A stretch of DNA of 64,000 bases from the human T2T-CHM13v2.0 reference genome, Homo sapiens, in the NCBI RefSeq assembly GCF_009914755.1, contig NC_060931.1, one strand, 5' to 3'. The notes under the pieces are model-generated. The model had not been told where the DNA came from. It saw only the letters and a program-made list of their open reading frames with translations, and did not search any database. Position numbers and translations under genes: made by a program. This document shows positions 49,476 to 64,000 of this stretch, one piece after another; the first letter of the stretch is position 1, and each line of letters begins with the position of its first letter.

Positions 49476-50201
<726 letters not shown>

Positions 50202-50972
50202 TGTCCGCCGGCCGCTGCGCTGCCCGGGACAGAGACAGAGGGGCCGGACCTCCCAGCAAGCGCATGCGCCCGTCGTGAATTCAGTGAATTCAGAGGCAGG
50301 ACGGGATCATCCGGAGTCGGGAGCTGCTGCCACAGGAGGCGAGGCTCCCCAGGTCTCATAGGACACATTTTGTCAGTGTTTGACCAGAAAAGCTTGGGAA
50401 GGAAGCGCTGTCTGTGCTCACGGACAGAGGCGGCCGGCGCCGGAGGCATTCCATCCTTTCTGTAGGGAAAGGAGCCTTTATTTACTATTTTGTATTTATA
50501 TTTGATGAATAAGTATATAAACAGAGACGTGTACACAGATGCCAATCACCTACCAAACCAAACACGAGGACCGCCCTCCCTGGTTCTGGGGGCCCCTCAA
50601 GGCCAAGCTCACCCCTCAAGTGCTCTCACACTCGGGACCTAATTCAAGTAAAAACCCTTTCTCCTTCCTGGGGCCTCGGCTCCTGGAGGGCTGGAGGGTC
50701 TCGTCTGAGGACGGGAGGAGGCTCTCGCTGGACGTCTGGCCTGTGCGCTGGTGGACGGATGCCTACGCGGTTTTGGAGGACCCGATGACCAGGCGTCCTG
50801 CGAGTCCGCCCGCTGGCCTGCAGCACCCACCTCGGACTTGGCTGTGGACGGTTGGTGCAAGTGCATCCTGCAGGGCTGGCTGTGCGCAGCTGTGGGCTGA
50901 CCTTTGCAGAGTTTTGTGGAATAGTTTGCAATGTCATAAAAGTGCAATAAAGGTACAGCAGATGTGTGTCGG
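50202..50972 (+). other. FAM20C: FAM20C 3' UTR (3' end approximate)
   Basis: Runs from the stop codon to about 20 nt past AATAAA, where a GT-rich stretch (gatgtgtgtc) follows. Confidence 0.8.
50946..50951 (+). terminator. FAM20C: Polyadenylation signal AATAAA
   Basis: First canonical AATAAA after the stop codon, with a downstream GU-rich element. Confidence 0.85.
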
Positions 50973-51864
50973 CCTCACGGGGCGGGTCCCTCACACCCTG
51001 GTGTGTGGCTGCCTGTCCACCCCCTCTCCAAAGAAAAACCAGTCCTGGAACCAGGCATGGCCAGGAGTCGGCATTCAAGGTGGCCTGGACCCGAGGCCTG
51101 CTGGGGTCGGAGGGGGCTTCCTGCCAAGCCCTGGTGCAAACAGGCCAGGTGGGGCCCCACCTCCAAGGCAGGGCGGTCCGTCCTGGGTTGCTCTCAGAGG
51201 CTGGGGCCGCGACCCAAAGCTGCGGCGGCCCCGAGGGCAGCCCCTGTCTGTAGCCCTGGCATGGGCAGCTTCCAGTGTTCCAGCAGGACTGGGCAGCCAT
51301 GCGTGGGGCAGCTGCCCCGGGGCTGTGGTGAGTGAGGGGCACCGTGAAGGGTGCCAGCCCCTTCCCACTGCTGGCCTCGGGGCTGCAGAGATGGGGCTGG
51401 GCTCCCAGGCCAGCATCTCCCCTGCTGGCACCATGTGAGGGGCAGAGGCAGGAGCCAGCATCCTGGCTACCACCTGCCCAGGGTCACACGGCCCAGGAGC
51501 CCTAAGAAATCAGCTGTGGGGCCAGTCACTGTGGCCCCCTCTTCTAAGAGCCTCTGCATCCACTCACCTGTCCGTTCCACAAAGTCCCTGACACCCATTT
51601 GAGCTGTGCCAGGCTGGGTGCAGCGGGGCCTGAGAGACTCAGCTCTGTCCTCATCACCGCCGCCTTGCAGAGCAGCGGGAGACGCACAGTAAATGCACAG
51701 ATGGGTCACAAACAGGGCCCTGCACATGGCAAGGAAGTCGGCAAGGGCAGAGGATGCGCCAGGCAGACATTGCGTGTGGGGCAGCCAGGGAGGTGCTGTG
51801 GCCCCTTCATCCACTGGCTGGAGCCGGCCCCCCCATGTCTCTCTCTCTTTGGGACTGAACCAAA

Positions 51865-52115
51865 AGAGGTGATTAAGTGGCGGGAGGGTTCGGGTGGTCC
51901 TGGTCCAATCTGACAAGAGCCCTTATGAGGAGAGGAGACACAGGGACGGCCCCGTGAGGACACGGAGAGGATGACATCCACGAGCCACAGAGAGGCCTGG
52001 AGGAACCAGCCCTGCCGTGCAGTGACCTCGGACTCCAGCCTCTGGGACTGTCTGTGGTTGAAGCCACCCCATCTGTCCATGGTGCTGTCACGGCATCCTG
52101 AGCGGACTCATGCAG
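51865..52115 (+). mobile_element. MaLR (MLT1/MST-like) LTR fragment
   Basis: ccaatctgac..cccttatgaggagaggagacacag...aaccagccctgcc...gactccagcctc...gaagccaccc. Confidence 0.55.
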
Positions 52116-53135
52116 GCAGCCTCCAGGAGGGGCTTCAAGGGGCCCCATGAAGGACGGGAGGCAGTGATGCCAGGAGCAGGGCCGGAGGCGCAGGTGGAGA
52201 AATGCAGCGGCCGTGCCCACCCTGCCGCGTGGGGCTGGCCCAACAGTGCCAATGTCGAGACCCACAGCCATGATAGAATTAAGTTAGTGTTTAAACAGAC
52301 ATGCCCCGGAGTCTGGACTGATAGAGGGGAGTGCTCTGTGCAGAAGCAGCTGTCGCCATCATCCGGCCACCACCGCCAGGGTAGCAACCACAGGGGAGGA
52401 AAAGTGTGCAGATTCCAGGGCCTGGGAGAGACCAGCAGGACCTGCTGCAGGGCTGGAAGTGTGGAGAAGAGAAGGAGAAAGTGTGACCTCCAGGATCTGA
52501 CTTCAGCCACGGCATGGGGCACCCTTCACTGTGGGGTGTTGAAGGAAGACCCAGAGGGGCAGGGAGGAGGCGTGTGGTGTCCCTGCAGGCACCAGATGAC
52601 AGCGGGGCTGGGTATAAAACATGGTGCTGCCAGCAAGGAGCTGGAACGTGGAGCCACAGCGAAGGGAGGAGGGTGCGCACGAGGCCTATGACAGCTCATG
52701 CACGGCTGGAGTCTGGGTAAGTGGAGGGGCAGCAAGGGTGGGGCTGATGGTCCAGACAGAGCAGACGACCCTTGCTGTCCACTATGGAAGGACACACAAG
52801 AACCATCATGCGTGTGAGAGCCTTTGGCATGAGAGACACAAAGCCACAGGGAAACACATGGTGTGGAGACTGTGCTGAGAGCAGAGATGCAGAGATGCAG
52901 AGACAGCAGAGATGCAGAGACAGCAGAGAGTGGACGAACGAGGAGGGTGTGGGGTGGCTGGGGATGGTGTGAGGTCCAGGGAACAGGAGGGGCTCTTGTG
53001 CACCAGCGTGGGTGGAGAAATCAAACAGGATGAAGGCTCGACAGAAAGAACAGGACACGAGACTGAGGAAGCTCCGAGAGAGCAGCGAGGGAGACCAGTG
53101 GCTGGAAAATGAGAAAACAAAGCCACTGAGGCCCC

Positions 53136-53930
53136 AGCAGCAGCCCCAGTGCCAACCAGCAGGGGGCACAGGACAGAGAAGAGGAAGCGGCAGCAGCCCC
53201 AGCGCCGACCAGCAGGGGGCACAGGACAGAGAAGAGGAAGCGGCAGCAGCCCCAGCGCCGACCAGCAGGGGGCACAGGACAGAGAAGAGGAAGCGGCTGC
53301 AGCTCCAGTGCCAACCAGCAGGGGGCACAGGACAGAGAAGAGGAAGCGGCAGCAGCCCCAGCGCCGACCAGCAGGGGGCACAGGACAGAGAAGAGGAAGC
53401 GGCAGCAGCCCCAGCGCCGACCAGCAGGGGGCACAGGACAGAGAAGAGGAAGCGGCAGCAGCCCCAGCGCCGACCAGCAGCGGGCACAGGACAGAGAAGA
53501 GGAAGCGGCAGCAGCCCCAGCGCCGACCAGCAGGGGGCACAGGACAGAGAAGAGGAAGCGGCAGCAGCCCCAGCGCCGACCAGCAGGGGGCACAGGACAG
53601 AGAAGAGGAAGCGGCAGCAGCCCCAGCGCCGACCAGCAGGGGGCACAGGACAGAGAAGAGGAAGCGGCTGCAGCTCCAGTGCCAACCAGCAGGGGGCACA
53701 GGACAGAGAAGAGGAAGCGGCAGCAGCCCCAGCGCCGACCAGCAGGGGGCACAGGACAGAGAAGAGGAAGCGGCTGCAGCTCCAGTGCCAACCAGCAGGG
53801 GGCACAGGACAGAGAAGAGGAAGCGGCAGCAGCCCCAGCGCCGACCAGCAGGGGGCACAGGACAGAGAAGAGGAAGCGGCAGCAGCCCCAGCGCCGACCA
53901 GCAGCGGGCACAGGACAGAGAAGAGGAAGT
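53136..53930 (+). repeat. 53-bp minisatellite, 15 copies, each with a CTCF-like core
   Basis: ccagcag(g/c)gggcac at 53156 and every 53 bp to 53898. Confidence 0.97.
53156..53911 (+). promoter_or_regulatory. Predicted tandem array of co-oriented CTCF sites
   Basis: CCAGCAGGGGGCAC matches the CTCF core CCASYAGRKGGCRC in 13 of 15 units. Binding itself is not shown by sequence. Confidence 0.6.
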
Positions 53931-53996
53931 GAGGAAATGGAAGAAGAGGGTTGACCTGAGCTGAAGGACATGAACTTCCACGTGAAATAGCCCCAG

Positions 53997-54330
53997 GGCC
54001 GGGCACAGTGGCGCACGCCTGTAATCCCAGCACTTTGGGAGTCTGAGGCAGGAGGATTCCTTGAGCCCAGGAGTTCGAGACCAGCCTGGGCAACACAGTG
54101 AGACCCACCCCCTCCATCTCTACAAAAAATACAAAAATTAGCCAGACACAGTGGCTCACACCTGTAGTCCCAGCTGCCCCAGAGTCTAAAGCAGGAGGCT
54201 CACTGGAGCACAGGAGTTCGAGGCTGCCGTGAGCTACGATTGCACCACTGCACTCCAGCCTGGGCGACAGGATGAGACTGTGTCTCAAAAGAAGAAAAAA
54301 GGAAAAACTAATAGTTAAAAGTAAATAAAT
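53997..54330 (+). mobile_element. Alu (J-type)
   Basis: GGCCGGGC head, two arms, degenerate A-rich tail, aaatag(c/t)ccc flanks. Confidence 0.92.
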
Positions 54331-55895
54331 AGTCCCGGTTTCCAGCAGAATAAAAGGAAGGTCAGCAGAAAGGCCAGGACGGCCTGAAGGAACTTCAGGG
54401 CTGGGACTGTGGGGTGGAGCCGTCCCTTCCGGATGCCGAGCGAACGGACCTCCCCGCAAAAGCACAGGGGTGAGGGGATGAAGTCATGTTCCACACACAG
54501 GATTTAGACACGGCTCATGGCCCATGCACCCGAAACCAGGATGTGCATCGAGGAGAAGGAGGAATGGGGCACAGTGGGGCGGCAGAGGCCCCGGGGTGCT
54601 GACGAGAGGAGCCCCGAGGGGGACATGGAGACAGGAGCAAGAGGACCCTGCAGAGAGGGGCGGGTGCCCGCCCAGAAGAACAAGCCAGGGGAAGAGGTGG
54701 AGATCCTGGCACGGCCAGGACGCCGTGGCTCAGCCTTGAGTGCGGCCACAGACACATCGTAACAGGAGCACCCAACGTCATTTTTCCATCAAGAAGAAGG
54801 CGGCGATATCACCGTATTGGGGAAGGGAGTGTTTGAGTGGGGAGATGTTGAGCTGTGACGTAAGCCTGTTATTTGGAAACACGGAGGTAAATACAAAAAC
54901 CAAACACGCCCAGCAAAACAAGGAAGGTGATTTTCTCTGGGTCTTTGCCAGGGGCAGGAGGGGTAGGAGGGGCAGGAGGGGCAGGGCCTGCTGGGTTTCA
55001 TGATTGCAGTGCTATTTCAGACTTTTTAAGCACTATTCACTGGTTTGATACAAAGTCAGAATGCAGTTTGACACCCACTAGCCGGGCCAGAGCTGACAGC
55101 CTCCTGGGGAGGGGTCAGCCCAGCCCCACGGCAGCCCTGGTGCACACCCACAGTGAGACCTGAGTTCATCTTTTACCTGCTTTGCTCCTCACAGTTACTC
55201 GGGGGTAGGAATTGTGGCCCCGTGTGCCCACGTCATAGTTGTGTAAACCGGGGCTTAGACAGTGGGTCGACTTTCTGGAGCTCAATACGGATAGTGCCTG
55301 CATGTGGACCCCGCCCAGACAGCCGCCCTCTTCCCACCTACCCGTTAACACCCATGCTGCATGCAAAGCCACCCACCCGCAGAAACAGGTGGTGCAGAGA
55401 GGGGGCGGGGGGATGAGACCAAGGGCTGAGGAACAAAATGAAGAAAAAGGGCTTTCAATTAAGTTCTTTCCCTTGGTGCAGGCTGCTTCCCACGGAGCAC
55501 TAAGCTGCCACTTTGTCCGCAAGTAGGACAGTGTCTTGCCAGAGAGGCCGACGAGAAGCGTGGGGGTTGAAATTCAAACATGATTTTTTACAAACCAGGG
55601 GAAAACCTGGGATTTCACTTCACAGAATTGAGAGTCAGGAAGGGAGTGGCTCACAAGGGGGGCTTCTGCCTGGCGCTGGGACCCCCGCCCCTGAGCCATC
55701 GGGGCCGCGCACCTGGCAGAGACCACAGAGCTGAAGGTGGGCACCACTTTTCTCTGAATTAAAGTAAATGAATGAAGAAATAAATAAATATATGAATGGG
55801 GATTCGTGTGTGGCCTGGCCCTCTAGGGCCATGGGACAAGATCTGAAGAACAGGCTGCTGGGGAATGCGGGTGGTGGGCACAGCCCAGCCAGGAT

Positions 55896-56058
55896 GCAGA
55901 AGCCTGCTCTGAACACAGAGGACACAGCCCACCCCAGCCCACAGCCCACAGCCCAGCCCAGCTGCAGAAGCCTGCTCTGAACACAGAGGACACGGCCCAC
56001 CCCAGCCCACAGCCCACAGCCGAGTCCGGTTGCAGAAGCCTGCTCTCAACACAGGACA
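55896..56058. repeat. 68-bp repeat, about 2.4 copies
   Basis: gcagaagcctgctct at 55896, 55964 and 56032. Confidence 0.85.
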
Positions 56059-57529
56059 CTGCCTGGCCCGAGACCACGTCACAGAAGGGCAGGGTTCCTG
56101 GCCCTCCCAGGGAGCTCCCTGGAGGCACCTGCGCCGTCCTCACCTGGGAGTGAGCTCCATATGCAGATTCCCGGGCCAGGTCCCCAAGCCCAAGTACAGA
56201 GGTTGGGGGCAGAGGCCTTCAGCTACCGAGGGTCCTGGATGCAGGGGCTCCCAGGCTGTCCTTTTGGGACTCACGGCTCAGCCCTTCCCCACCTCCTGGG
56301 GGGACCTCCCCGGAGTACCCTGACTGCACAGACACCCTCGGCACACCTGGCCTGCAGCCAGTCCGTTCCACAGAACCCCCAAGCCACTGTCCCCCAGGAG
56401 GGCCTTCACCAGGGCAGACGACAAGAGAAGGTTCCAGAAGCCTCTGCCTGCCCAGGTGGGCCTGAGAGGGGCGAGGAAGATGGATGGGCCCAGACCAAGC
56501 GATTGTCTGAGGAGCAGAGTTCCAGCTCCCAGTGTGTGGGGGATGCGGACATCTTCCTGTGCACAGAGGGCTCTGCTGACCCTTTCAGTGACAGGGGAAG
56601 GGCGCCTGCATTTGGAAGAAGGGGCTTGTAGCCGGCCGCCTGCTGGGAGGGCGTCCTCCAGAAGGGGAGGCATTTGCTCCTGCCCTCGCAGCTTGTCCTG
56701 AAGTAAAATTCCTCTCCTGGGAAAAGTGGGAGAGGAATTAGGAGAGCCCCAGGGCTGCTGCTGTGTGGGGTCTGGGCGTGGCGGTGCCCGCTGGGCCCGT
56801 ACCAGCCATACCCTAGCCTAGGTTGCCCAGGTCGGCCACCCAGCTAGGCTACTGTGGGGGGCTCCGGCCAGCCGGCCCCTTCCCAGAGCGCCTGCCCCGC
56901 CCATCTCCGTGGGTCCCAGGGCTCGGCCATCCTGTGAGCTGGAGGGACCCGCAGGTCCGCAGGTGAGCGCAGGTTCCCGGGACACCTGCTCATGTCTGGT
57001 CCGCGTGCGTCACCTAGAGGACAGCCGGGGAAGAGCAAGAACCAGCGTCCGCGTGAGCGGCGGCCCCAGCCGAGAAGCAGGTGCCTTGTCCTCAGCGCCC
57101 AGGGTCAGCATGGCCCCACCGCCTCCCTCAGCCCGGCCCAGAGCCCAGGCCACATGGAGCTTGTGCATCTCCTGCTCCTGCCTCCCCAGGACCAGCTCAG
57201 TCCTGGCAACTCCATAACTCCTGCCAGGTAACCGGGTTCTTCTCCTGTACGTCCATTCTGAAAGAACACTGTGCAAATTCAGTACCCTGCACACCAACAC
57301 ACCTACGACACCTCCCTTAAACGTGGAACCGGAAGCCTGGAATTGCCCTGGAGGGCAGCGGGAGCTGTTGCTGCCCCCCCACCGGCCTTCCAGAGCCTCC
57401 GAAGCCCCCTGCATGCATGGCGCCTTGGGGCCTTTGCATGGCTGCCCCCTGGAGCTCTGCGCCTGCCCAACCCCTTCACTTTGTTAATTCCTGTCCTGAC
57501 GCGGCTCAGACGTTTCATCTGGGAGGATG

Positions 57530-57692
57530 GTTTCAGGTGCACACCACCCCACCCAGCCAATTTTTCAATTTTTTATAGAGATGGAGTCTTTCTGTGCTGC
57601 TCAAATTGGTCTCAAACTCCTGGCTTCAAGTGATCCTCCTGCCTCAGCCTCCCCAAAATGCTGGGATTCCAGGCATGAGCCACCGTGTCCAA
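57530..57692 (-). mobile_element. Alu left monomer/FLAM, antisense
   Basis: ggtctcaaactcctggcttcaagtgatcctcctgcctcagcctccccaaaatgctgggatt. Confidence 0.85.
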
Positions 57693-58603
57693 CCCCGTTT
57701 TATAAATAAGATCATGTTCTGAGGTTCTGGGAGGACATGAATGTTGGGGGCACACATTTAACTCACTACTGTCTTCCAATCCAGATGAATTTTCTCTCCC
57801 TTTCATAGCTCAGTCCGTTTTGTTTTTAAGCGTGCTGTGAGTCTTAACGAGGATAGCAAGTGCCACTCCCCATTCGGAGTAGACCATCATCTCATTTAGA
57901 AGAGACGGCGTGCATTAGATACAAAAACTCAAAGGTGTTTAGATATGAATGTGGCAGAGACACAAATTAACTGCGAATCGCAGCTGTCATCCAGGGCAGA
58001 TTTCCTAAAGAGGTGCTATCTGTCTAAACAGCAAGAAACATTTATTGTAACTCATGGCTATGGTGCCTTCCAGATTTTCGGGAAGTAAAAGGCCATGATT
58101 GGTGTCCCCCAAGGCACAGAAATCCTTATTTCGGAGGAAAAGCTACACACCAGCCAGGGTGGCTGAGAACCCTGCCCTGAAGAACAAATCCAACTTTCCC
58201 TCAGCCACACCTCAAAGAATATGAACATAAACAGAGCCTCACTCCCTACATCCCAGGCCGAAGGCCACAGCTCAAACCTGCACAGTCCTGAGGCCCTGCA
58301 TGTTCTGCCTGACCCTGTGTTTATGTATTGGCCACGTGCAGAAATCCTGCAATCAATGAGAGATACATTTGAGTGTCTATAAACTCAACACATGTTTACT
58401 GAGCACCTACTATGTTACAAATGCCCTTGATGCTGGGGATGGGATGGGGAGCAAGACAGGCTCTGTCCTAGGAGGATGCCGTCCTGGGACACGCCAGCAG
58501 GTCAGGGCAAGTGCACGAAAGCCGTAGGCTTCAGACTTTATTGGCGACAACCGGGACCACTGGAGGACATTCGGCAAGTCTCTGGAGTGCACAAAACGGA
58601 GGT

Positions 58604-58803
58604 TCTCTTCCTGTCTCCGTTACACTCTCCTCCTGTCTCCTTTATGCTCTCCTCCTGTCTCCTTTACGCTCTCCTCCTGTCTCCTTTACGCCCTCCTCCT
58701 GTCTCCTTTACGCTCTCCTCCTGTCTCCATTACGCCCTCCTCCTGTCTCCTTTACGCTCTCCTCCTGTCTCCTTTACGCTCTCCTCCTGTCTCCTTTACG
58801 CCT
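58604..58803. repeat. 22-bp pyrimidine-rich minisatellite, about 9 copies
   Basis: ctctcctcctgtctcctttacg reiterated. Confidence 0.92.
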
Positions 58804-59103
58804 TCCTGGCTGCTGGAGGACGGCTCAGCGGGCCCTGAATCCCCACAGTCAGAGCAGGTCACTGACCTCCGTGCCGCAGCCTCAATTCATGAGACTGCTG
58901 AGTCCAAGACATGACTCAAAGCTCTGCCCTTGACCCTGGACTCAGTCGCTCCCTCCTGAGGCTTAGGCTGCAGGGGATTTCTCCATTCTCCGCCCTCCTT
59001 CCATGGCCCGGCTTGCTTCGCTGGTGGGAAAGGCAGGGAGGGGGCCAGGGGTGCTGAGTAGAACCTTGAAGCTGCCTCCACAATCAGGTCAGCAGTGCAT
59101 GAA

Positions 59104-60146
<1,043 letters not shown>

Positions 60147-60745
60147 TCGCCCATCTTTCTTAGCTGTAAGTCGGGGCCTCTGGGCCTGATCCCCACAGGG
60201 ACCAGAAGTGAGAACGAGGACACCCACAGTGGTACCCGGGCCATCTCTCAGACCTCCTGCCAGCTCCAGCTTCAGCTGGCCAAGGGGCCCAGAGTCATGG
60301 TCTGGTCATCCAAACACCCTTTGTGAGTTCCGCATGGGTTGGGGCTGGGGTGTCTGCCTCCCAGGCACTAGGGAAGTTCCCACTGTGTAATCTGGGACCT
60401 GTCAGAAGTTTCTGTAAGGAGGCAAGCCCACCTCTGCCTTCCCTAAGTTTCTGGCAGAGTGAACGAGGACATCTTCCCCCACCTCCAGCCTCCCCAACCC
60501 CAGCGGCCTCTCCTGCCCTCTGGCCCGGAGGCAGAACCTCCCACGGCCACCCAGGCTGGCCAGCTGCCACCGTCATTCCCAGAGACCTGTGCCACAATTC
60601 CTCAAGGTCAGCTCAGCCTGGGTGAAACTCGTTCATTCTTTAATTCCTCTCAGTGAAAGTTTGAAAGTCTGCAAATGGAGTTTCCTGCTTAAAGAACAAA
60701 CAACAACAACAAAACACACACACACAAAGTTGGGGGCATGTTTTA

Positions 60746-61088
<343 letters not shown>

Positions 61089-61629
61089 CAGAAGGATATT
61101 TCAAAGGATATTTTGGAAATAACTGGACAGATTTGCCTATGGGCTCTATGTCAGTGATAAGATTGTGTTGACATCCCATTTCCTGGGCCTGGCGCTGTGT
61201 CCATGGAGGAGAGCGTGCTTGTCCTTGGGAGAGGCAGGCTGAGGCCTTCAGGATGAAGTGTAATGGCATCTGCAGCTCACTTTGAAATGTTTCAGCAAAA
61301 AAAATGCTCACCAGGAGTTCAAGAAGATGTCTAAATTTGGCTCGGGGATGGAATTTCACCCACAGAGTATAATTAGAAAAAATACATTTTATGCAAACTC
61401 CGCTCTTCTGTGAAGTAAGTGAGTCAAGATGTTCATGACTGGCGGATTTAGGAGCTGAAGCATTTGTGGGTGTTCACTGCACTGTTCTTTACACTTTTTG
61501 GTGGGTATAAGAGAGTGTGCACCGCCTTCATGAATTGTCTGGAGGAAAAGATGGGTACGCACAACTCAGGGCCCTGTTTAGGGACGGGGTCAGCTCCTGC
61601 CCGCCCATTCCCCTCTCCTCCCAGGCAGA

Positions 61630-61952
61630 GGCTGAGGATGTGGAGGAGGAGCAGCATCTGAGGCCCCTGCAGGGGGGAGCGAGGAGGGAGCACGGCTGAG
61701 GATGTGGAGGAGGGACAGCATCTGAGTCCCCTGCAGGGAGGAGTGGGGAGGGAGCACGGCTGATGATGTGGAGGAGGGACAGCATCTGAGGCCCCTGCAG
61801 GGAGGAGCGGGGAGGGAGCACGGCTGAGGATGTGGAGGAGGAGGAGTGGCGTCTCAGACCCCTGCAGGGAGGAGCAGGGAGGGAGCACAGCTGAGGATGT
61901 GGAGGAGGAGCGGCACCTGAGGCCCCTGCAGGGAGGAGCGGGGAGGGAGCAC
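61630..61952. repeat. Approximately 64-bp purine-rich minisatellite, about 5 copies
   Basis: ggctgaggatgtggaggag...cccctgcagggaggagcggggagggagcac. Confidence 0.9.
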
Positions 61953-62172
61953 TCCAGAAACACTTCCCAAGTCCACGTGCCTGCATCCCAGATTTCCTCT
62001 CCCTGGGATGGCTGCTGGACATCCCAAATTCCGCCGAAGCTGATCCCGCACTCTCCCCCACAGAAGGTTCTCCCCACGCAGCCTTCCCTCATCATCAGTA
62101 ACAACTCCCCTGACTCTTCTCCTCCCCCAGCACCCCTCACGTGCTGAGCTCCACTTCTGGAGATGGAAGAAC

Positions 62173-62372
62173 AGCCCCTCCCTCCACGCCCCCACTGTGC
62201 ACGTTCCCAGACACCGAAGTCACCTCCTGGTTCTGAGTCCCAGTGGCCTGCACAGTGACCCTCACAAGAGCCCCTCCCTCCACGCCCCCACCGTGCACGT
62301 TCCCAGACACAGAAGTCGCCTCCTGGTTCTGAATCCCAGCGGCCTGCACAGTGACCCTCACAAGAGCCCCTC
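62173..62372. repeat. 96-bp tandem duplication
   Basis: agcccctcc at 62173, 62269 and 62365. Confidence 0.88.
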
Positions 62373-63109
62373 CTCAGCTCGCAGTCCAAGGGACCCGTAA
62401 ATGTGTGAGCAGATCACACCCCCTCTCCTTCACGCACCATCCCCATCCCACACGAGGGCAAGGCAGAGTCCTCACAAAGGCCTTCGGGGTCCTCTGCAGG
62501 TGGCCTCGGTCCACGTGCTAAGATCATCCTGCTTCTCTTCCTCTCACGGGTTCTCCTTCAGCCCCAGGCCTGGCTGCTTCTCGGTCAGTGGGCATTCACC
62601 CGCACAGCCCTCTGCCCTGTGCCTCCCTCAGCCTCGCATGGCTGGTGCGTCCCCTCTTTTGGGTCTGTGCATAGATGTCATCTCATGGGGGAGCCTACTG
62701 TGACCAGCCCATGACCACCCACACACCCATGCATGCACACACACACCCAGACACACAGGGAGACTGCTGTGGCCAGCCCATGACCACCCACACACTCGTG
62801 TGCACACACACACCCAGGCACACACACCCTGGACCCATGACCCTGCTATGTTTCTTTCCCCGTAGTACTTTTCTCACCTAGATTATCATTTTAGTCACCT
62901 TTTGGTCAATAATTTGTCTCCTCCGATAGAACCTAAGCCCATGAAGATGGAAGACAGGGCAGGTTTTTTACTACGATTATTGTTCACTGGCATAGCCCAA
63001 CCACGTCGACCACATTGTAAGCTCTTGATAAAAAATAAGAATGACTCCACATGACAGAAAGAGCCACCATGTGGCCATAAGGGACCAAACCACAGACCCA
63101 CTCAGGCCG

Positions 63110-63932
<823 letters not shown>

Positions 63933-63933
63933 A

Positions 63934-64000
63934 TGTTAAACCCAATTAAATATGGCCTGAGAAGGACTCCATACTTCTATATTTGAGTACTTGTGGATGA
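63934..64000. mobile_element. Start of a probable ERV1-class LTR (runs off the window)
   Basis: TG start followed by aaatatggcctgagaaggactcc..acttctatatttgagt..ttgtggatga, resembling a recalled LTR 5' end. Subfamily not assigned. Confidence 0.5.

What the first reader, a model, noticed from the sequence alone, without database searches (positions are those of the whole stretch)
53136..53930. VNTR-encoded array of 15 co-oriented, helically phased CTCF motifs just downstream of FAM20C
Seen: CCAGCAGGGGGCAC every 53 bp (53156 to 53898); 13 intact, with units 7 and 15 carrying a G>C core change. Units 4, 11 and 13 have TGCAG 12 nt upstream of the core, the spacing I recall for the module read by CTCF zinc fingers 9-11. 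The intact core has no CpG, and 53 bp is about 5 helical turns. Known: clustered same-orientation CTCF sites form strong directional loop-extrusion barriers. Inference: a polymorphic super-anchor pointing away from FAM20C, whose insulation strength depends on copy number and unit type.
Basis: partly seen in the sequence, partly recalled or inferred. Interest (0 to 1): 0.85.

Follow-up and report, generated by a model that had tools for sequence, protein, structure and literature searches.

The report
Minisatellite made of CTCF binding sites
Just past the end of the FAM20C gene lies a 15-copy, 53-base tandem repeat in which every copy carries a sequence that fits the genome-folding protein CTCF, a known kind of element whose actual binding and effect here still need an experiment.

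Summary
There are 15 head-to-tail 53-bp units (window 53137-53931). Thirteen carry CCAGCAGGGGGCAC; units 7 and 15 carry a G>C change. Units 4, 11 and 13 have TGCAG 12 nt upstream of the core.

The core 12-mer is identical to the one in the HighOc1 CTCF probe and in the crystallised CTCF ZF3-11 DNA. The three B-type units also repeat that DNA's upstream module at the same 8-nt offset. The 53-bp spacing falls in the published clustered-site class, which gives double footprints.

The array is single-locus. It is one of five places in CHM13 with runs of at least five co-oriented strict cores at 32-92 bp period. Two of the others are subtelomeric 61-mer arrays of the family over which CTCF/cohesin ChIP peaks have been published. 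Homology to them is not shown.

The RefSeq ORF over the array is a by-product of a unit with almost no T.

CTCF occupancy, insulation, copy-number polymorphism and any meaning of helical phasing could not be tested. The 61-, 74- and 81-bp arrays show no common phasing.

Verdict: a new member of a known kind, very probably binding-competent, with its function as a boundary unproven.

The parts
53137..53931 (+). 53-bp minisatellite, 15 units in the order C A A B A A D A A A B A B A E. It is 68% G+C with 11 T in 795 bases.
53156..53858 (+). Span holding the 13 intact CTCF cores CCAGCAGGGGGCAC. They start at 53156, 53209, 53262, 53315, 53368, 53421, 53527, 53580, 53633, 53686, 53739, 53792 and 53845.
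53298..53328 (+). Unit 4, a B-type full site: upstream 9-mer TGCAGCTCC (53298-53306), an 8-nt spacer, then the core (53315-53328).
   Evidence: layout compared by eye with the crystallised oligo quoted
53669..53699 (+). Unit 11, a B-type full site with the same layout.
53775..53805 (+). Unit 13, a B-type full site with the same layout.
53474..53487 (+). Unit 7 variant core CCAGCAGCGGGCAC. It has C at the consensus G/A position and gains a CpG.
   Evidence: consensus
53898..53911 (+). Unit 15 variant core with the same G>C change. The unit also ends GTG instead of GCG.
53190..53348 (+). Three-unit block A-A-B (units 2-4), repeated at 100% identity at 53561-53719 (units 9-11). This points to multi-unit duplication inside the array.
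53030..53932 (+). CDS of RefSeq Gnomon model LOC124906654. The open frame is a by-product of the T-poor repeat, not a supported protein.

Best explanation
This is a single-locus minisatellite whose 53-bp unit is a complete CTCF recognition site. It most likely arose when one real CTCF site was amplified by slippage or unequal exchange.

Shown here:
- there are 13 perfect and 2 weakened cores, all on the + strand;
- 3 units carry a good ZF9-11 upstream module at the high-affinity offset, and the other 12 carry a degenerate one (6 of 8 specified bases);
- the centre-to-centre spacing of 53 bp leaves about 33 bp between 20-bp cores.

Inferred:
- several CTCF molecules (and CTCFL/BORIS where it is expressed) occupy neighbouring units at once, as at published clustered sites;
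- their N-termini face the centromere side (FOXL3, PDGFA);
- the array therefore stalls cohesin arriving from that side and shields FAM20C;
- because the intact core has no CpG, binding should resist DNA methylation of the core itself.

That barrier strength scales with unit number and unit type is a further, weaker inference.
For: - Array anatomy.
- The strict core CCASYAGRKGGC occurs 13 times in the window, all in the array, against 0.82 expected.
- The same 12-mer core is in the HighOc1 site used for EMSA and single-molecule barrier assays, which has a Kd of 17 nM for the 11-ZF domain. It is also in the oligos of PDB 8SSS and 8SSQ.
- The 8SSQ oligo reads TGCAGTACC + 8 nt + CCAGCAGGGGGCGC. 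B units read TGCAGCTCC + 8 nt + CCAGCAGGGGGCAC.
- An upstream motif raises affinity and insulation, and a 5-bp spacer is better than a 6-bp one.
- At local base composition, an upstream-module match at one fixed offset has P = 0.005 for at least 6 of 8 bases and P = 0.0004 for at least 7 of 8.
- Two motifs with a 30-40 bp linker give double DNase footprints in vivo.
- CTCF/cohesin ChIP-seq peaks span tandem 61-mer arrays of like design.
- Insulation rises with the number of tandem sites.
- The array holds 13 of the 16 strict cores found in 294 kb of tiles around it.
- Orientation rule.
Against: - No occupancy, accessibility, methylation or contact data could be consulted.
- RefSeq lists no functional element here, though that set is sparse.
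- Nine A units and units D and E have G+C-rich upstream flanks (read). A preprint reports that such flanks cut predicted affinity by more than 75%.
- CpG observed/expected is 0.42. Unit types differ by CpG>TpG and CpG>CpA changes. This suggests germline methylation of the array, which is unusual for constitutively bound sites (inference).
- No strict reverse-oriented core was found downstream, but only half of 374-654 kb was scanned.
- Published clustered sites associate with promoters and enhancers more than with boundaries.
- A rough estimate suggests a handful of minisatellites would carry a strict core by chance.
Confidence: 0.55

Rival explanations
1. It is a neutral subtelomeric-region minisatellite. 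The unit happens to contain, or once was, a CTCF site. In chromatin the array is methylated and nucleosomal, little occupied, and has no architectural effect.
For: - The region downstream of FAM20C is packed with other minisatellites.
- CpG observed/expected is 0.42, with CpG-decay differences between units.
- No functional element is annotated.
- G+C-rich flanks are reported to lower affinity.
- Chance estimate: 0.82 strict cores per 64 kb is about 7e-4 per 53-bp unit. Against tens of thousands of VNTR loci (35,638 in the abstract listed), this predicts on the order of ten such arrays by chance. Five runs were found.
Against: - The core is identical to a 17 nM site and has no CpG to be blocked by methylation.
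- The upstream module at the correct offset is unlikely by chance (P = 0.005 to 0.0004).
- 61-mer arrays of like design are bound in vivo.
Confidence: 0.28
2. It is a diverged relative of the subtelomeric 61-mer (TERRA-promoter type) repeat and works as a CTCF-dependent promoter element. It would drive the unspliced 6.8-kb transcript modelled as LOC124906654 rather than act as a boundary.
For: - The module order and the 8-nt offset are the same as in the 61-mer.
- The non-core parts of the units align better than shuffles: P = 0.002 for A and 0.0185 for B.
- The transcript model runs in the same direction as the motifs.
- CTCF sites drive TERRA transcription (abstract of PMC5727389 as listed).
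- BORIS turns clustered sites into transcription start sites.
Against: - The middle segment alone is not significantly similar: P = 0.08 with mononucleotide shuffles and 0.22 with dinucleotide shuffles.
- Unrelated minisatellites of the window score 12-23 against the 61-mer, compared with 21-25 for the 53-mer.
- Array-level BLAST gives 185 bits, and 2 of 30 shuffled arrays score higher.
- The flanks are unrelated.
- There is no telomere-like repeat in the array, and Tandem Repeats Finder reports no 29-mer or 37-mer array in 50000-64000.
- The orientation relative to the telomere is opposite to the p-arm 61-mers.
- The model's 5' end lies upstream of the array and coincides with its ATG, so the transcription start site is unknown.
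Confidence: 0.1
3. It is the coding sequence of a real protein, as in RefSeq model LOC124906654 ('topoisomerase 1-associated factor 1-like').
For: There is an ATG at 53030 and an open frame of 300 codons to a TGA at 53930.
Against: - 53 is not a multiple of 3, so the 'protein' cycles through all three frames.
- All six frames are open because the A unit has no T.
- Stops follow the array at once in all three frames, so any copy number gives an ORF.
- None of 881 scored candidates reached E <= 0.001. A further 7119 candidates were left out before scoring, so this blank means less.
- No Pfam family matches at E <= 1.
- The model is Gnomon-only, with no 5' UTR.
Confidence: 0.02
4. The repeated motifs are read mainly by other factors. 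Candidates are ZIC-family zinc fingers on CAGCAGGGGG, or ETS/SPI1-type factors on the GAGGAAG present in every unit.
For: GAGGAAG occurs 15 of 15 times on the + strand. The resemblance of the core to ZIC motifs, and of AGAGGAAG(T) to ETS/PU.1 motifs, is recalled and was not tested.
Against: The full 12-14 bp core plus the upstream module at the correct offset is specific to CTCF/CTCFL. No matrix scan for other factors could be run.
Confidence: 0.05

Closest known systems
Subtelomeric 61-mer tandem repeats (beside TERRA promoters and internal telomere-like islands)
   Same: - Short-period tandem arrays in which each unit has a strict CTCF core preceded by a TGCAG-type upstream module 8 nt away, all co-oriented.
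- Copy number runs from 2-4 at chromosome ends up to 13.6-14.6 at the chr18p and chr9q loci.
- CTCF and cohesin ChIP-seq peaks span such arrays (passages of PMC4032850).
   Different: - The period is 53, not 61.
- No demonstrable homology exists outside the CTCF modules.
- The flanks are unrelated and the locus is single-copy.
- There is no neighbouring telomere-like repeat in the array and no 29/37-mer array nearby.
- The motif points away from the nearest telomere, whereas p-arm 61-mers point toward it.
- The core ends GGCAC, with no CpG, instead of GGCGC.
Clustered CTCF target sites (2xCTS; Pugacheva et al. 2015, PMC4562119)
   Same: Two or more CTCF motifs lie under one peak with a 30-40 bp linker. 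They give double DNase footprints and are occupied by CTCF homodimers or CTCF-BORIS. Here the linker between 20-bp cores is about 33 bp.
   Different: Here there are 13-15 sites, generated by tandem duplication rather than two conserved sites. Occupancy is unknown. 2xCTSes are enriched at promoters and enhancers.
VNTR-borne CTCF sites proposed to tune folding (HRNR repeat, Lu et al. 2023, PMC10234305)
   Same: [quoted passage not shown]
   Different: HRNR is a coding repeat, and the sites were weaker FIMO matches (P < 1e-4) to the 34-bp matrix. Here the array is non-coding, with a much shorter period and perfect cores.
Macrosatellites that bind CTCF (DXZ4, ICCE, FIRRE; the tRNA VNTR at 1q23.3)
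   Same: These are tandem repeats with one or more CTCF sites per unit, implicated as boundaries or superloop anchors (titles and abstract starts only).
   Different: Their units are kilobases long (3 kb and 7.3 kb), so sites are far apart. Here the sites are 53 bp apart.

Membership tests
CTCF binding site | Core motif read by ZF3-7: CCA-S-Y-AG-R-K-GGC (IUPAC form recalled; written form CCACCAG(G/A)GGGGGCC) | tested here: met
   13 of 15 units match the strict 12-mer. Units 7 and 15 have C at the G/A position. The 12-mer is identical to the HighOc1 and PDB 8SSQ/8SSS DNA.
CTCF binding site | Optional upstream 9-mer read by ZF9-11 at a 5-6 bp spacer (8-9 nt before CCA) | tested here: met
   3 of 15 units (4, 11, 13) have TGCAGCTCC + 8 nt + core. 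That is 7 of 8 specified bases of TGCAGTNCC (consensus recalled; the crystal oligo reads TGCAGTACC + 8 nt). The other 12 units have AGCAGCCCC, 6 of 8.
CTCF binding site | Binding of CTCF protein in vitro (EMSA or affinity measurement) | not testable with these tools
   Only inferred from identity of the core with measured sites.
CTCF binding site | Occupancy in cells (ChIP-seq, CUT&RUN, footprints) | not testable with these tools
   No such data were reachable. No paper found names this locus.
Clustered CTCF sites (2xCTS) | Two or more motifs close enough to fall under one peak, with a 30-40 bp linker | tested here: met
   A period of 53 bp gives a linker of about 33 bp between 20-bp cores.
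Clustered CTCF sites (2xCTS) | Double footprints, or CTCF-BORIS co-occupancy | not testable with these tools
   None.
Subtelomeric 61-mer repeat family | Sequence homology of the unit beyond the CTCF modules | tested here: inconclusive
   Non-core alignment gives P = 0.002 (A) and 0.0185 (B). The middle segment alone gives P = 0.08 and 0.22, with control minisatellites scoring alike. In the array-level BLAST, 2 of 30 shuffled arrays score higher.
Subtelomeric 61-mer repeat family | Shared flanks or duplicon context, a neighbouring telomere-like repeat, and orientation toward the telomere | tested here: not met
   Flanks are unrelated. There is no TTAGGG dimer in the array. The left flank is single-copy. 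The chr7p array lies on the + strand, while p-arm 61-mers lie on the - strand.
Minisatellite / VNTR | Head-to-tail units of tens of bases | tested here: met
   Period 53, 15.0 copies, 96% matches.
Minisatellite / VNTR | Copy number varies between people | not testable with these tools
   Only one haplotype is available. Internal block duplication makes variation likely. Supplementary VNTR tables of the papers were closed.
Loop anchor / domain boundary | Cohesin accumulation and an insulation dip in contact maps, with a convergent partner | not testable with these tools
   The motif scan found no strict reverse core in the half of 374-654 kb that could be fetched.
Protein-coding gene (LOC124906654) | Homologues, domains, and a repeat period compatible with a reading frame | tested here: not met
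   No homologue reached E <= 0.001 (with many candidates left out). No Pfam family matched. The period of 53 is not divisible by 3, and all six frames are open for lack of T.

The most novel reading that the evidence does not exclude
The array arose independently of the 61-mers as a tandem block of 13-15 tightly packed, co-oriented CTCF sites whose cores have no CpG. Many CTCF molecules occupy it at once. It forms a boundary, or a CTCF/BORIS-driven start site, whose strength differs between people with unit number and unit type. That would make it a natural human allelic series for asking how barrier strength scales with the number of adjacent CTCF sites, and a second, convergent invention of the 'minisatellite of CTCF sites' design.
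Probability: 0.2. Interest if true: 0.7.

Novelty: new member of a known kind. Interest (0 to 1): 0.45.

Why it matters
If the array is occupied, it packs up to 15 same-direction CTCF sites into 0.8 kb, 2.1 kb past the FAM20C 3' end. Minisatellites change copy number readily, so people would carry different numbers of sites. That would allow barrier strength to be measured as a function of site number and type (with or without the upstream module, or with the weakened core) in native chromatin. So far this has been approached mainly with engineered insertions. It also bears on annotation. A predicted protein-coding gene in the T2T RefSeq set rests on this repeat alone and should be treated as doubtful. 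Short-read ChIP and variant pipelines may mis-handle the locus. If the array is not occupied, it is an ordinary minisatellite that shows how a perfect motif match can mislead.

Tried and rejected
Homology to the subtelomeric 61-mer. I tested it three ways and compared the flanks. Similarity is confined to the CTCF modules, so I do not file the array in that family.

Coding reading. I translated the ORF, searched for homologues and scanned Pfam. Nothing was found. The homologue search left out 7119 candidates of untold source, so that blank is weak on its own.

RNA families. Rfam at gathering thresholds over 50000-64000 gave 0 matches.

Recombination and telomere motifs. The recalled PRDM9 13-mer and a TTAGGG dimer gave 0 hits in the array on either strand.

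Other copies. The three-unit query matched only this locus. The left flank is single-copy, apart from about 110 bases of a dispersed repeat.

Convergent partner. Only 294 kb of tiles between 190 and 644 kb could be scanned.

Literature. FAM20C+VNTR returned 5 papers, none about this array on the listing; I read the FAM20C passages of two of them. FAM20C+CTCF returned 25 papers, of which 15 were listed. None of those looked relevant from title and abstract start, and I read one passage. The exact 14-mer in full text matched one paper, on tenascin-X, which is unrelated. Supplementary tables of VNTR catalogues and of the subtelomere ChIP study (which covers the first 500 kb of each arm, so may show this site) were closed.

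No position weight matrix was available, so no FIMO-type score is given. I could not map the position-18 finding of PMC3902912 onto this core without its figure, and I left it out.

Comparison with other primates and between human haplotypes was not possible with these tools.

Full report
WHAT IS THERE. Window 53137-53931 is one tandem array of 15 units of 53 bp (96% matches, no indels). It lies 2.1 kb beyond the annotated FAM20C 3' end at 50993.

The 14-mer CCAGCAGGGGGCAC recurs every 53 bp on the + strand. Thirteen copies are exact, and units 7 and 15 read CCAGCAGCGGGCAC. That is 15 hits at up to 1 mismatch against 0.21 expected, and 0 of 100 shuffles reach 15.

Cutting the array into units gives five types in the order C A A B A A D A A A B A B A E:
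- A occurs nine times.
- B (units 4, 11, 13) differs from A by four linked changes. Two of them are CpG>TpG and CpG>CpA. One (A>T) creates TGCAG.
- C (unit 1) has only the two CpG changes.
- D and E carry the core G>C change.

Units 2-4 are repeated at 100% identity as units 9-11, so blocks of units have been duplicated. The copies are one amplified sequence, so the enrichment statistic does not measure 15 independent events.

COMPOSITION AND THE REFSEQ GENE.
- The A unit contains no T at all (G 21, C 16, A 16), and the whole array has 11 T in 795 bases. That alone explains why all six frames are free of stops.
- RefSeq's only feature here is a Gnomon model, LOC124906654. Its CDS (53030-53932) is the ATG 107 bp upstream plus the array.
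- The period is not a multiple of three, so the predicted protein cycles through three frames.
- Stops follow the array at 53930, 53952 and 53962 in the three frames. Any copy number would therefore yield an ORF.
- No candidate homologue reached E <= 0.001 among 881 scored, with 7119 others left out unscored. No Pfam family matched. I read the ORF as a by-product of the repeat.
- No RefSeq functional element and no soft-masking covers the array. Rfam finds nothing in 50000-64000.

IS IT A CTCF SITE? The strict core CCASYAGRKGGC (IUPAC form recalled, and consistent with the consensus written in the Introduction of PMC12885311, read in full) occurs 13 times in the 64-kb window. All 13 are in the array, against 0.82 expected.

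The same 12-mer is the core of three measured DNAs:
- the HighOc1 site used for EMSA and single-molecule cohesin-barrier assays (Methods passages of PMC10132984), whose Kd for the 11-finger domain is 17 nM (passage of PMC3902912);
- the oligo of PDB 8SSS;
- the oligo of PDB 8SSQ. Both oligos are quoted in a bioRxiv Methods passage.

The ZF3-11 crystal DNA (8SSQ) reads TGCAGTACC, 8 nt, CCAGCAGGGGGCGC. B units read TGCAGCTCC, 8 nt, CCAGCAGGGGGCAC (comparison by eye). It corresponds to the 5-bp-spacer class that a preprint reports as higher affinity than the 6-bp class (passages).

The upstream module increases affinity and enhancer blocking. The 12 non-B units carry AGCAGCCCC at the same place, 6 of 8 specified bases. 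At local base composition, a match of at least 6 of 8 at one fixed offset has P = 0.005, and at least 7 of 8 has P = 0.0004. The G>C variant puts C at the G/A position of the consensus and creates a CpG, so units 7 and 15 should be weaker.

Against strong binding, A-type upstream flanks are G+C-rich (read). The same preprint reports that high-G+C flanks cut predicted affinity by more than 75%.

CAN NEIGHBOURS 53 BP APART BE OCCUPIED TOGETHER? Pugacheva et al. 2015 (passages) describe clustered sites with two 20-bp motifs separated by a 30-40 bp linker. These give double DNase footprints even without BORIS. They show higher CTCF signal and bind CTCF-BORIS in germline and cancer cells. Here the linker is about 33 bp.

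Stong et al. 2014 (passages) report CTCF and cohesin ChIP-seq peaks spanning 61-mer arrays: 7.3 copies at an internal site and 2-4 copies at chromosome ends. Simultaneous occupancy of adjacent units is therefore plausible but untested here.

HOW UNUSUAL IS IT IN THIS GENOME?
- The three-unit query matches only this locus. The left flank is single-copy except for about 110 bases.
- The exact 14-mer occurs 87 times in CHM13, 13 of them here.
- I searched the whole assembly for two co-oriented strict cores at a period of 32-62 bp (52 and 30 matches) and 63-92 bp (2 and 26 matches).
- Runs of at least five consecutive pairs occur at five places: this array (5 + 6 pairs); chr9:150.39 Mb (12 pairs); chr18:0.25 Mb (11 pairs); chr2:114.40 Mb (5 pairs, 74-bp period); and chr14:100.27 Mb (5 pairs, 81-bp period).
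- The chr9 and chr18 arrays are 61-mers of 14.6 and 13.6 copies. They are 98% identical including flanks.
- Pairs with the related 58-nt-spaced sequence lie 2.8-5.1 kb from the start of chr6, 9, 11, 12, 16 and 19. On chr6 they sit beside the terminal telomere repeat.
- The tool warns that counts of repeats are lower bounds and that closed regions are not shown.
- A rough chance estimate: 0.82 cores per 64 kb is about 7e-4 per 53-bp unit. Tens of thousands of VNTR loci exist (35,638 in an abstract listed). A strict core in some minisatellite is therefore expected by chance about ten times. Requiring the upstream module as well brings this to roughly 0.1 or less. This is inference, not a computed test.

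RELATION TO THE 61-MERS. The module order and the 8-nt offset are the same.
- Non-core parts of the units align better than mononucleotide shuffles: P = 0.002 for A and 0.0185 for B.
- The segment between the core and the upstream module does not: P = 0.08 with mononucleotide and 0.22 with dinucleotide shuffles.
- Unrelated minisatellites of the window score 12-23 against the 61-mer, versus 21-25 for the 53-mer.
- Array-level BLAST gives 185 bits, and 2 of 30 mock arrays score higher.
- The flanks share nothing.
- The chr7p array is on the + strand, whereas all p-arm 61-mers found are on the - strand.

Homology is not shown. The resemblance is one of functional design.

ORIENTATION AND LIKELY ACTION. 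According, ZF7 reads the CCA end. The N-terminal/ZF3 side lies 3' of the core and faces into the domain from which cohesin extrudes.

In 294 kb of tiles between 190 and 644 kb, the array holds 13 of 16 strict cores. The others are one reverse core at 304,077 and two forward cores at 421,880 and 538,133. Only half of the downstream interval could be fetched.

Reporter work shows stronger blocking with more tandem sites. Lu et al. 2023 already proposed that VNTR length sets CTCF site number and folding at HRNR. I therefore rate binding competence as very likely, occupancy in at least some cell types as likely, and a copy-number-dependent boundary as possible but unproven.

Signs of past germline methylation are a CpG observed/expected ratio of 0.42 and CpG-decay differences between units. 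These, together with the promoter/enhancer bias of clustered sites, count against a constitutive boundary.

HELICAL PHASING. 53 bp is 5.0 turns at 10.6 bp per turn and 5.1 at 10.4. Over 14 steps, that uncertainty exceeds a full turn. The other arrays have periods of 61, 74 and 81 bp, so the CTCF-bound 61-mer family is not phased. I give this point no weight.

VERDICT. This is a real and neat feature: a minisatellite built from a complete CTCF site, at a single locus, and not described in the papers I could search. It belongs to a known kind, namely tandem-repeat arrays of CTCF sites and clustered CTCF sites. Its architectural role, its variability and its dose dependence remain to be shown.

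Noticed in passing
L008 948-1837 (chr9:150,391,547-150,392,436) and L009 915-1740 (chr18:250,514-251,339): Two long 61-mer CTCF-core arrays (14.6 and 13.6 copies) lie about 225-250 kb from the 9q and 18p ends. They are 98% identical including flanks and inverted relative to each other, so they are a subtelomeric duplication. Neither stretch has a TTAGGG dimer within the fetched 2.6-2.8 kb.
   Followed up: partly
G000 chr2:114,404,255-114,404,638: A 74-bp tandem repeat has a strict CTCF core in each of at least six units. It was seen only in the pattern search and not fetched.
   Followed up: no
G000 chr14:100.27-101.15 Mb, with copies on chr15:19.08 Mb and chr16:32.4-35.5 Mb: There are many short-period (about 20 and 81 bp) repeats of CCACCAGGGGGC...GCTCAGGA. 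From recall, this is the IGH region and its dispersed copies.
   Followed up: no
window 55879-56054, 58604-58801, 59103-59583, 61630-61952, 62173-62373, 62689-62824: A cluster of further minisatellites (periods 68, 22, 57, 64, 96 and 69) lies in the 9 kb downstream of the array. None carries a strict CTCF core.
   Followed up: partly
window 51938-52051: About 110 bases in the left flank resemble (72-84%) a repeat present in many copies, mostly within the first few Mb of chrX and chrY and at several other chromosome-end regions.
   Followed up: no
window 53137-53931: Every unit also holds GAGGAAG (15 of 15, + strand). The last unit reads AGAGGAAGTGAGG, which from recall resembles an ETS/PU.1-type site. 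The + strand is 69% purine, with G in excess over C.
   Followed up: partly
window 52873-52929: A short (TGCAGAGA)n-like repeat with nested 17- and 25-bp periods lies 200 bp upstream of the array.
   Followed up: no
window 53030-59877: The RefSeq 'protein-coding' model LOC124906654 is a single 6.8-kb exon whose CDS is almost wholly the minisatellite. The protein name looks like a low-complexity artefact.
   Followed up: yes
FAM20C region generally: A long-read study reports that FAM20C was incompletely assembled in all 100 samples with both assemblers (passage of PMC11610458). This locus may therefore be poorly represented in population assemblies.
   Followed up: no
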